Source of the DNA: Eledone cirrhosa
Taxonomy: Eukaryota
Direction of reading: 5' to 3'
Assembly (NCBI GenBank): GCA_964016885.1
Contig: OZ024745.1
Span: 75,392,001-75,456,000 of the forward strand
Length of the DNA: 64,000 nucleotides
Shown here: positions 56,272-56,347 of the stretch, one piece after another
Position numbering within the stretch: position 1 is the first letter of the stretch
Layout: every line of letters begins with the position of its first letter
Program-made: the position numbers and the translations under genes
The notes under the pieces: generated by a model
What the model saw: the letters and a program-made list of their open reading frames with translations, nothing else
The model's database searches: none
Told to the model about the DNA's origin: nothing

Positions 56272-56347
56272 ACAGATTAAAGTTTAAGCAAAGAATCGGT
56301 GCTTTCACCCTTAACGGGATCTTCTGAAACTAACAAAGTCAATCTGT
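56272..56347 (-). ncRNA. Extended type I hammerhead fold with A4 core (family E)
   Basis: Reverse strand: acagattga-ctttgtt-agttt-CAGAAGA-t-ccc/gttaa/ggg-t-GAAA-gca/ccgattctt/tgc-TT-aaact-ttaatctgt. Confidence 0.7.

What the first reader, a model, noticed from the sequence alone, without database searches (positions are those of the whole stretch)
56272..56347. Extended hammerhead with an A4 core (CAGAAGA) shared across family E
Seen: CAGAAGA occupies the core in the copies at 56321-56326 (-), 20541, ~41673-41680 (-) and ~49579, so it is not copy-specific decay. The fold has stem II ccc/ggg, a true stem III (gca/tgc), a CUU triplet and a 9-bp distal stem I separated by a 7-nt bulge. A similar CAGATGA occurs in the unrelated old element at 30540-30594 (-). 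Inference: a natural U4A variant, possibly supported by a bulge-loop II tertiary contact.
Basis: partly seen in the sequence, partly recalled or inferred. Interest (0 to 1): 0.7.

Follow-up and report, generated by a model that had tools for sequence, protein, structure and literature searches.

The report
Retrotransposon hammerhead ribozyme with altered core
This is the tail end of a very abundant jumping gene whose hammerhead-type RNA motif has an A at a core position that is almost always U, a change kept through a long history of the family while only the loops changed, so it is likely a working but slow self-cutting RNA, though cutting is untested.

Summary
The motif is real. 56272-56347 (-) is the 3' terminal-repeat (pLTR) hammerhead of a 5'-truncated Penelope-like retroelement with Hydra-clade protein motifs. 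A4 is the family state: 18,557 of 18,744 exact genomic matches. Three older subfamilies, whose flank differs from the youngest by up to 33%, also carry A4. Between subfamily consensuses 0 of 43 freely scored stem/core positions changed, against 5 of 15 loop/N7 positions; N7, the one free core position, is the only core base that changed. That is selection on the hammerhead fold with A4 in place, not decay. Against fast cutting: published CUGA mutants are weak, no compensatory pairs, no Rfam hit, proximal stem I is poorly favoured by ViennaRNA, and inserted copies run across the cut site. Best reading: a slow natural U4A hammerhead (0.6). I found no U4A natural variant in the papers I could read, but the main catalogue of Penelope hammerhead variants was not available. 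This scan noted the same family before elsewhere in this genome (e1-10310971).

The parts
56257..56356 (-). 5'-truncated copy (3' end of the pLTR) of a Penelope-like retroelement, subfamily E1b, inserted in (TA)n
   Evidence: 99% identity over 100 nt to the 3' end of the full-length copy in L054; (TA)n on both sides
56339..56347 (-). Distal stem I, 5' strand (9 nt)
   Evidence: Pairs with 56280-56272; pair probabilities 0.7-1.0
56332..56338 (-). 7-nt U-rich bulge; 8 nt and of different sequence in older subfamilies
56327..56331 (-). Proximal stem I, 5' strand (5 nt)
   Evidence: Complementary to 56285-56281; pair probability about 0.5 in this copy, under 0.1 in subfamily consensuses
56320..56326 (-). 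Core C3 A4 G5 A6 A7 G8 A9; the variant A4 is base 56325
   Evidence: A in 18,557 of 18,744 genomic matches
56307..56319 (-). Stem II: U10.1.U11.1 mismatch, 3 C-G pairs, 5-nt loop II
   Evidence: U.U at this place in 14 of 26 published Hydra hammerhead rows (counted by eye)
56303..56306 (-). Core G12 A13 A14 A15.1
   Evidence: unchanged in all subfamily consensuses
56287..56302 (-). Stem III (G15.2-C16.2 and two more pairs, closed by A15.1-U16.1) with a 9-nt non-palindromic loop; 56299 is a private change of this copy
56285..56286 (-). Predicted cut site, between U17 (56286) and A1.1 (56285)
   Evidence: inferred from the hammerhead consensus; not observed
56272..56285 (-). Stem I, 3' strand; U1.7 is base 56279
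   Evidence: unchanged between subfamily consensuses except one added U in E3
20459..20614 (+). Second E1b copy with A4; G12 and stem III damaged
41612..41777 (.). Fold-back copy pair; sense arm on - starts at C3, A13 damaged
49578..49634 (+). Copy of the older subfamily E2, truncated at C3, A4 kept, A13 damaged
53405..53593 (.). Fold-back copy pair; sense arm on + starts inside the core
63712..63779 (-). Copy truncated at G5
17720..17855 (.). Fold-back copy pair truncated in stem II

Best explanation
The stretch is the hammerhead motif in the terminal repeat of a Penelope-like retroelement with Hydra-clade protein motifs, it carries A instead of U at core position 4 throughout the family, and it likely still cuts its own RNA, slowly, at the predicted site after C-U-U. 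Shown: the element anatomy (pLTR with hammerhead - ORF - spliced 3' UTR - pLTR with hammerhead, unit 3,259 nt), A4 as the fixed state, constraint on stems and core, and that inserted copies were made from RNA continuous across the predicted cut site. Inferred: A4 weakens the CUGA U-turn; the long 14-bp stem I and a likely contact between U1.7 and the last A of loop II would offset part of the loss; the result would be a monomeric, low-rate ribozyme that cuts only a fraction of transcripts (freeing unit-length RNA from read-through or tandem transcripts, perhaps for circularisation or translation), while uncut or rejoined RNA serves as template for insertion into (TA)n.
For: A4 in 18,557 of 18,744 matches; 17 of 17 copies covering the position in 60 unselected 10-kb stretches (by eye); no other base at 5% or more in a DNA run. 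In 30 of 73 older copies picked only by the 5' distal strand and bulge, position 4 is A 26, C 1, G 1, gap 2, U 0, while N7 is A 18, U 9, G 1, gap 2; none of the 73 listed rows reads CTGA (by eye). E1b against E3 consensus: flank 33 of 101 differ; unforced stem/core 0 of 43, loop/N7 5 of 15 (Fisher p 7e-4; flank against stem/core p 2e-6). Dead E3 copies decay alike in stem/core (14.6%), loops (16.7%) and flank (13.2%), so this is no mutational cold spot. A second family in this genome has C4 (4,258 matches; 91 of the first 100 rows C, by eye), so position 4 is plastic here. Perreault 2011 reports natural U4C with lowered in vitro activity yet enough in vivo, and U10.1.U11.1 as the best tolerated mismatch. 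Full-length copy L054 has the motif in both pLTRs around a long ORF.
Against: No cleavage data. In a pairwise mutant scan of a type III hammerhead all CUGA-turn mutants except the C3-G8 swap had low activity and no rescuing second mutation (PMC9901934). Three unfavourable features coincide: A4, U.U at 10.1/11.1, C-U-U triplet. No compensatory base changes between subfamily consensuses, so the pairing rests on complementarity and invariance. ViennaRNA puts the hammerhead fold 2.8-6.4 kcal/mol above the minimum and gives proximal stem I a probability under 0.1 in all four consensuses. 16 of 16 spliced copies examined continue across the cut site, and 0 of 45 copies begin at it, so the genome shows no footprint of cutting.
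Confidence: 0.6

Rival explanations
1. The fold is kept as a non-cutting RNA structure or protein-binding site (for example for the element's reverse transcriptase near its priming site); A4 killed catalysis and the family spreads from uncut RNA.
For: All copies examined run across the cut site and none starts there; published CUGA mutants are weak; Craig 2021 notes hammerhead function in these elements is unclear; invariance without compensatory change also fits sequence-specific binding.
Against: The one core base that changed is N7, the position a hammerhead leaves free, while G5, A6, G8, A9, G12-A15.1 and U16.1 stayed fixed over 33% flank divergence; a binding site has no reason to follow that pattern.
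Confidence: 0.2
2. A fully active ribozyme: A4 is compensated or even preferred in this context (G15.2-C16.2, long stem III, extended stem I), giving an alternative core geometry.
For: A4 has stood through at least four subfamilies without a U4 lineage taking over, although U4 point mutants arise (about a third of 187 non-A copies, by eye); G15.2 is found in none of 26 published Hydra rows and co-occurs with A4 here.
Against: No rescuing pair for CUGA mutants in a complete double-mutant scan of another hammerhead; natural core variants tested so far are mostly slower; fast cutting would remove the 3' priming end that inserted copies retain.
Confidence: 0.12
3. Dead passenger: a master element lost its ribozyme by U4A and amplified anyway; the motif is conserved only because the copies are young.
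For: E1 copies are 94-100% alike; Naiad elements spread without canonical hammerheads.
Against: Older subfamilies keep A4 and every stem/core base while flank and loops diverge.
Confidence: 0.05
4. A4 is kept because it makes the core a 3' splice acceptor (pyrimidines then CAG) that removes half of the ribozyme from the message.
For: The sequence reads as a pyrimidine tract followed by CAG at C3-A4-G5; the element has a real intron in this UTR.
Against: Of the first 100 of 284 rows that follow the main donor exon with a base other than G, about 71 join an acceptor 103 nt upstream of the core and none joins the core AG (by eye).
Confidence: 0.03

Closest known systems
Hammerheads of Hydra-clade Penelope-like elements (Craig et al. 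2021, PMC8557442; section 11 and File S2 read)
   Same: Type I hammerhead in the pLTR, sense to a single RT-GIY-YIG ORF; (TA)n targets; U10.1.U11.1 (14 of 26 rows); U17 common; protein motifs DKT, CxCx5C, CxxC, CxH.
   Different: All 26 published rows have CUGA and C at 15.2 with a short, mostly palindromic stem III (dimer type). This one has A4, G15.2-C16.2, a 4-bp stem III with a 9-nt non-palindromic loop, and a 14-bp bulged stem I; unit length 3.26 kb; not in that paper's supplement.
PLE hammerhead variants (Cervera and De la Pena 2014, PMC4209133; parts 1-2 of 4 read)
   Same: pLTR location, low activity expected, nearby spliceosomal intron, known core change U3-A8.
   Different: No position-4 change in the text read; metazoan forms there have minimal stem III, whereas this one resembles the monomeric long-stem-III forms they describe for fungi and protists.
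Natural core variants, including viroid U4C (Perreault et al. 2011, PMC3088659, passages and section 8; Naghdi et al. 2020, PMC7151607, passages and supplement)
   Same: A single change in the conserved core in a natural context; U4C lowers in vitro activity but suffices in vivo.
   Different: U4A is not among the variants named in the text read (figures not seen); a purine cannot mimic U as protonated C can (established chemistry; abstract of PMC4105743); here the variant is fixed in more than 18,000 copies.

Membership tests
Type I hammerhead ribozyme | Three helices around the core, stem I open | tested here: met
   Complementary strands for stems I, II, III, invariant across subfamilies; no compensatory changes seen
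Type I hammerhead ribozyme | C3, G5, A6, G8, A9, G12, A13, A14, A15.1-U16.1, H17 | tested here: met
   All present and unchanged in four subfamily consensuses
Type I hammerhead ribozyme | U at position 4 (CUGA U-turn) | tested here: not met
   A in 99.0% of 18,744 matches and in older subfamilies
Type I hammerhead ribozyme | N7 free to vary | tested here: met
   A 18, U 9, G 1, gap 2 in 30 older copies; U marks subfamily E3
Type I hammerhead ribozyme | Match to an Rfam hammerhead model | tested here: not met
   No hammerhead among 7 matches at E up to 10 for 56240-56370
Type I hammerhead ribozyme | Stem I - loop II tertiary contact | tested here: inconclusive
   U1.7 and the last A of loop II are constant in the consensuses, the bulge is not; the U1.7 contact is described in PMC9217987 for a GUGA tetraloop
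Type I hammerhead ribozyme | Site-specific self-cleavage after H17 | not testable with these tools
   Needs an assay or RNA-end data
Hydra-clade Penelope-like element | Single ORF, RT followed by C-terminal GIY-YIG endonuclease | tested here: met
   ORF with YRDD then YIG motif; 567 homologues at E<=1e-30, one listed with PF01541. A direct Pfam scan of two ORFs gave 0 families at E<=0.1
Hydra-clade Penelope-like element | DKT in place of DKG; RWK motif; GxKF/Y absent | tested here: met
   DKT at 115, RWR (variant of RWK) at 37, no GxKF/Y; DKT in 112 and RW[RK] in 112 of 120 listed homologues
Hydra-clade Penelope-like element | CxCx5C linker; CxxC and CxH beside the C-terminal E and N; no CCHH | tested here: met
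   All three motifs found in L047; the only CxxC lies after the YIG core. CCHH was judged from that, not aligned
Hydra-clade Penelope-like element | Insertion into (TA)n; pLTR and inverted 5'-truncated copies | tested here: met
   33 of 53 3' ends run directly into TA repeats, 15 after a long extension, 5 other; pLTR pair in L054; fold-back copies
Hydra-clade Penelope-like element | Generally under 3 kb, with canonical hammerhead | tested here: not met
   Unit 3,259 nt; hammerhead non-canonical at position 4. The paper gives the length as a tendency
Hydra-clade Penelope-like element | Placement in the Hydra clade by RT phylogeny | not tested
   No tree with published Hydra proteins was built

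The most novel reading that the evidence does not exclude
A natural hammerhead ribozyme that works with a purine in place of the U-turn uridine, using a different core geometry (A4 with G15.2-C16.2 and an extended stem I), selected for a tuned rate that lets an autonomous retroelement balance cut and uncut RNA. With the C4 family in the same genome this would show that position 4 is a rate dial in retroelement hammerheads and that CUGANGA-based searches miss whole families.
Probability: 0.3. Interest if true: 0.7.

Novelty: new variant of a known kind. Interest (0 to 1): 0.48.

Why it matters
U4 is treated as part of the invariant hammerhead core and mutant scans find no rescue for it. A family that has held A4 under selection gives a ready natural test of how far the core can bend, and a native A4 / U4 pair to measure. 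It also bears on an open question, what hammerheads do for Penelope-like elements: a conserved but probably slow ribozyme, in an element whose inserted copies come from RNA continuous across the cut site, makes the 'partial cutting' and 'circle' models directly testable. Descriptor searches that require CUGANGA would miss these more than 18,000 motifs.

Tried and rejected
DNA search of the own genome with the 95-nt stretch found nothing because common words are skipped; patterns were used instead. Apparent U4 sister subfamily: 1,090 matches to a CTGA pattern; of 30 examined, 27 are clear fold-back junctions that create the T, 1 probably so, 1 is another family, 1 a single copy; rejected. Apparent second A4 family (CAGATGA, 1,201 matches): it lies antisense beside a canonical hammerhead in a tandem repeat and its relatives change G8/A9; rejected as a chance look-alike, and a warning that such motifs arise by chance. 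30540-30594: palindrome arm, rejected. Core AG as splice acceptor: not used in 100 rows read. Nearest other Hydra-like family found (L107, 52% identity in the C-terminal part) has a U3-U4-A8 core with long stems, so the origin of A4 could not be placed. Sequencing runs: no RNA holder listed; three runs labelled as other organisms hold one low-depth contig each, nearly identical to E1b, which I do not count as conservation across species. Metagenome scan: 32 matches, none with the hammerhead stems. Window-wide Rfam scan was swamped by microsatellite-driven miRNA matches. The alignment of 25 copies (one row on the wrong strand) was not used for pair counts, since dead copies decay neutrally. The L054 fold was off by two bases and is disregarded; one search replaces it. 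Papers not held: Lunse et al. 2017, Nelson and Uhlenbeck 2008, Martick and Scott 2006; one search fetched an unrelated paper.

Full report
OBSERVATION. CAGAAGA occurs 13 times in the window against 1.84 by chance; 4 are this family's core, 4 are stem II of a U3-A8 hammerhead of another family, and the other 5 were read in context and show no hammerhead arrangement (by eye). The window holds seven loci of the family; this copy is the only one with both stem I strands and an undamaged core. Rfam gives no hammerhead match at E up to 10. The fold is not the energy minimum for this copy (-12.0 against -14.9 kcal/mol; z -0.89). The CAGATGA at 30540-30594 is one arm of an imperfect palindrome whose other arm and a homologue read CAGGTG; no GAAA follows.

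IS A4 THE FAMILY STATE? The genome (3.0 Gb, animal by size and repeats; host not established) has 18,744 exact matches to a 30-letter pattern with positions 4 and 7 left open and 187 when position 4 must not be A: 99.0% A. In the first 100 of the 187, about a third read T (by eye), as expected of random point mutation. In 60 unselected 10-kb stretches there were 23 family hits and 17 of 17 that cover position 4 read A (by eye). A public DNA run shows no other base at 5% or more there, so this is no assembly error. A looser search gave 1,090 CTGA matches, but 27 of 30 examined are fold-back junctions in which the inverted arm supplies the T.

WHAT CARRIES IT. Upstream of long copies lies an ORF. 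L054 holds a full-length copy: hammerhead, 197 nt to the ATG, ORF, 3' UTR, second hammerhead 3,259 nt after the first, then (TA)n. The protein has RWR, DKT, YRDD, CxCx5C, YIG, CxxC and CxH and lacks GxKF/Y, the diagnostic set for the Hydra clade of Penelope-like elements in Craig et al. 2021 (section 11 read). A Pfam scan of two ORFs found nothing; a homologue search found 567 proteins at E<=1e-30, and of 120 listed 109-113 carry each of those motifs. No tree was built, so clade membership rests on motifs. The 3' UTR has an intron (element 2408-3156): about 71 of the first 100 of 284 rows join the donor exon to an acceptor 103 nt upstream of the core (by eye), and 16 of 16 such loci examined are ORF - spliced UTR - hammerhead - tail. 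These copies show that the element was transcribed, spliced and reverse-transcribed from RNA continuous across the predicted cut site. 0 of 45 copies selected without regard to their 5' side begin at the cut site; truncations are spread from -10 to beyond -250.

IS THE FOLD UNDER SELECTION WITH A4? Besides the young subfamilies E1b and E1a there are older ones, E2 and E3. I picked 73 older copies by the 5' distal strand and bulge alone; none reads CTGA (by eye). In the 30 fetched, position 4 is A 26, C 1, G 1, gap 2; N7 is A 18, U 9, G 1, gap 2. Consensuses (36 E1b, 3 E1a, 10 E2, 10 E3 copies) differ from E1b in the upstream flank at 21 of 109, 30 of 106 and 33 of 101 positions. Inside the 76-nt motif, leaving out the 18 positions forced by my pattern (which include the bulge), E3 differs at 5 of 15 loop/N7 positions and 0 of 43 stem/core positions (p 7e-4), E2 at 4 of 15 and 0 of 43 (p 3e-3); flank against stem/core p 2e-6 and 2e-5 (using 11 E3 and 19 E2 copies). 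E3 also has one added U where proximal and distal stem I meet. Dead E3 copies decay equally in stem/core, loops and flank (14.6, 16.7, 13.2%), so low mutability does not explain it; E2 is a mixture of sub-lineages and less clean. The only core base that changed is N7. There are no compensatory changes, and the subfamilies are related, so these p values describe one lineage's history, not independent events.

MECHANISM. Established: U4 opens the CUGA U-turn and contacts the A6-N7 phosphate (Perreault 2011, section 8); mutants of this turn had low activity with no rescuing partner in a complete double-mutant scan (Roberts 2023, PMC9901934, passages; per-mutant values not seen). Natural U4C is slower in vitro but adequate in vivo, and U10.1.U11.1 is the best tolerated mismatch. 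Inferred: A4 costs rate; the 14-bp stem I and a contact between U1.7 and the last A of loop II would offset part of it. Both bases are constant in the four consensuses while the bulge changes; the U1.7 contact is described for a tetraloop in PMC9217987 (passages), and here U1.7 is drawn in a G.U pair next to the bulge, so this is a lead only. Stem III is not palindromic, so the motif should act as a monomer. ViennaRNA disfavours proximal stem I in all consensuses, which also points to slow or partial folding. A slow ribozyme suits the element: its 3' priming end lies 27 or about 110 nt past the cut site, so RNA that is cut and not rejoined cannot be inserted. What the cut fraction is for (unit-length RNA, circles as proposed by Cervera and De la Pena, or translation initiation as shown for viral type I hammerheads in PMC13725137, passages) is open. 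I put 0.6 on slow cutting, 0.2 on a non-cutting structure, 0.12 on full activity, 0.05 on a dead passenger and 0.03 on a splice-site role.

COMPARISON AND NOVELTY. All 26 Hydra rows of Craig's File S2 have CUGA and C15.2; 14 have the same U.U mismatch (by eye); this family is not in that supplement. The nearest other Hydra-like family I found has U4. A different family in this genome has C4 with N7 and stem II varying (4,258 matches). Searches for a described natural U4A hammerhead and for hammerheads in cephalopod repeats found none; I also read passages of PMC11014351, PMC7151607 with its supplement, PMC7229834, PMC6155905 and bioRxiv 10.64898/2026.07.22.740005, and searched 11 supplementary files of Perreault 2011 without a hit (its figures were not seen). 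Lunse et al. 2017, the main catalogue of Penelope hammerhead variants (recalled), was not held, so 'not in print' is provisional. It works like a type I hammerhead by every feature I could test except U4 and the Rfam match; I file it as a variant, not a canonical member. An earlier unreviewed note of this scan reached the same reading on other copies in this genome; I had reached mine before seeing it.

VERDICT. Observation partly confirmed, interpretation partly supported, new variant of a known kind, interest 0.48.

Noticed in passing
window 54823-54865 (+); L109, L121, L132, L059, L137; genome-wide pattern: An older repeat family with a C4 hammerhead core (CCGANGA), N7 varying among A, U, G, C, stem II pairs that change between subfamilies and a palindromic stem III; 4,258 matches, 91 of the first 100 rows C, 8 T (fits CpG decay), 1 A. 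A natural U4C family.
   Followed up: partly
window 10612-10701, 28132-28244, 39750; L060, L139, L107:4900-5000: Several families with the U3-A8 core covariation (TTGANAA); one, in the Hydra-like family of L107, has a very long stem II and an extended stem III.
   Followed up: partly
L335-L354; element positions 2408-3156 of L054: Spliced retrocopies of this element: a GT-AG intron in the 3' UTR is precisely removed in many genomic copies, and a second donor 33 nt downstream is used in others (L018, L345). Penelope-like elements are known for retaining introns.
   Followed up: partly
L063-L091; window 17720-17855, 41612-41777, 53405-53593: Fold-back (inverted 5'-truncated) copies are very common; about 1,000 have the junction centred on the A4 position, but my pattern selected for that, so a hotspot is not shown.
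   Followed up: partly
window 477, 833-861, 6765-6793, 9506, 15409-15479, 17326-17362, 20335-20357, 36245-36285, 42124, 53673-53752, 55900: Many canonical U4 hammerhead motifs of other repeat families, often as inverted pairs in (TA)n.
   Followed up: no
L048:6677-9227, L116, L149, L140:620-3380: Tandem repeats of about 480 bp and 310 bp, each unit with a canonical type I hammerhead, resembling non-LTR retrozymes.
   Followed up: no
window 30431-30657: 227-bp imperfect palindrome with a homologue in L245; MITE-like or a fold-back remnant; no hammerhead.
   Followed up: partly
window 30100-30225 (-): Fold-back remnant that by eye matches the 3' end of the Hydra-like family of L107.
   Followed up: no
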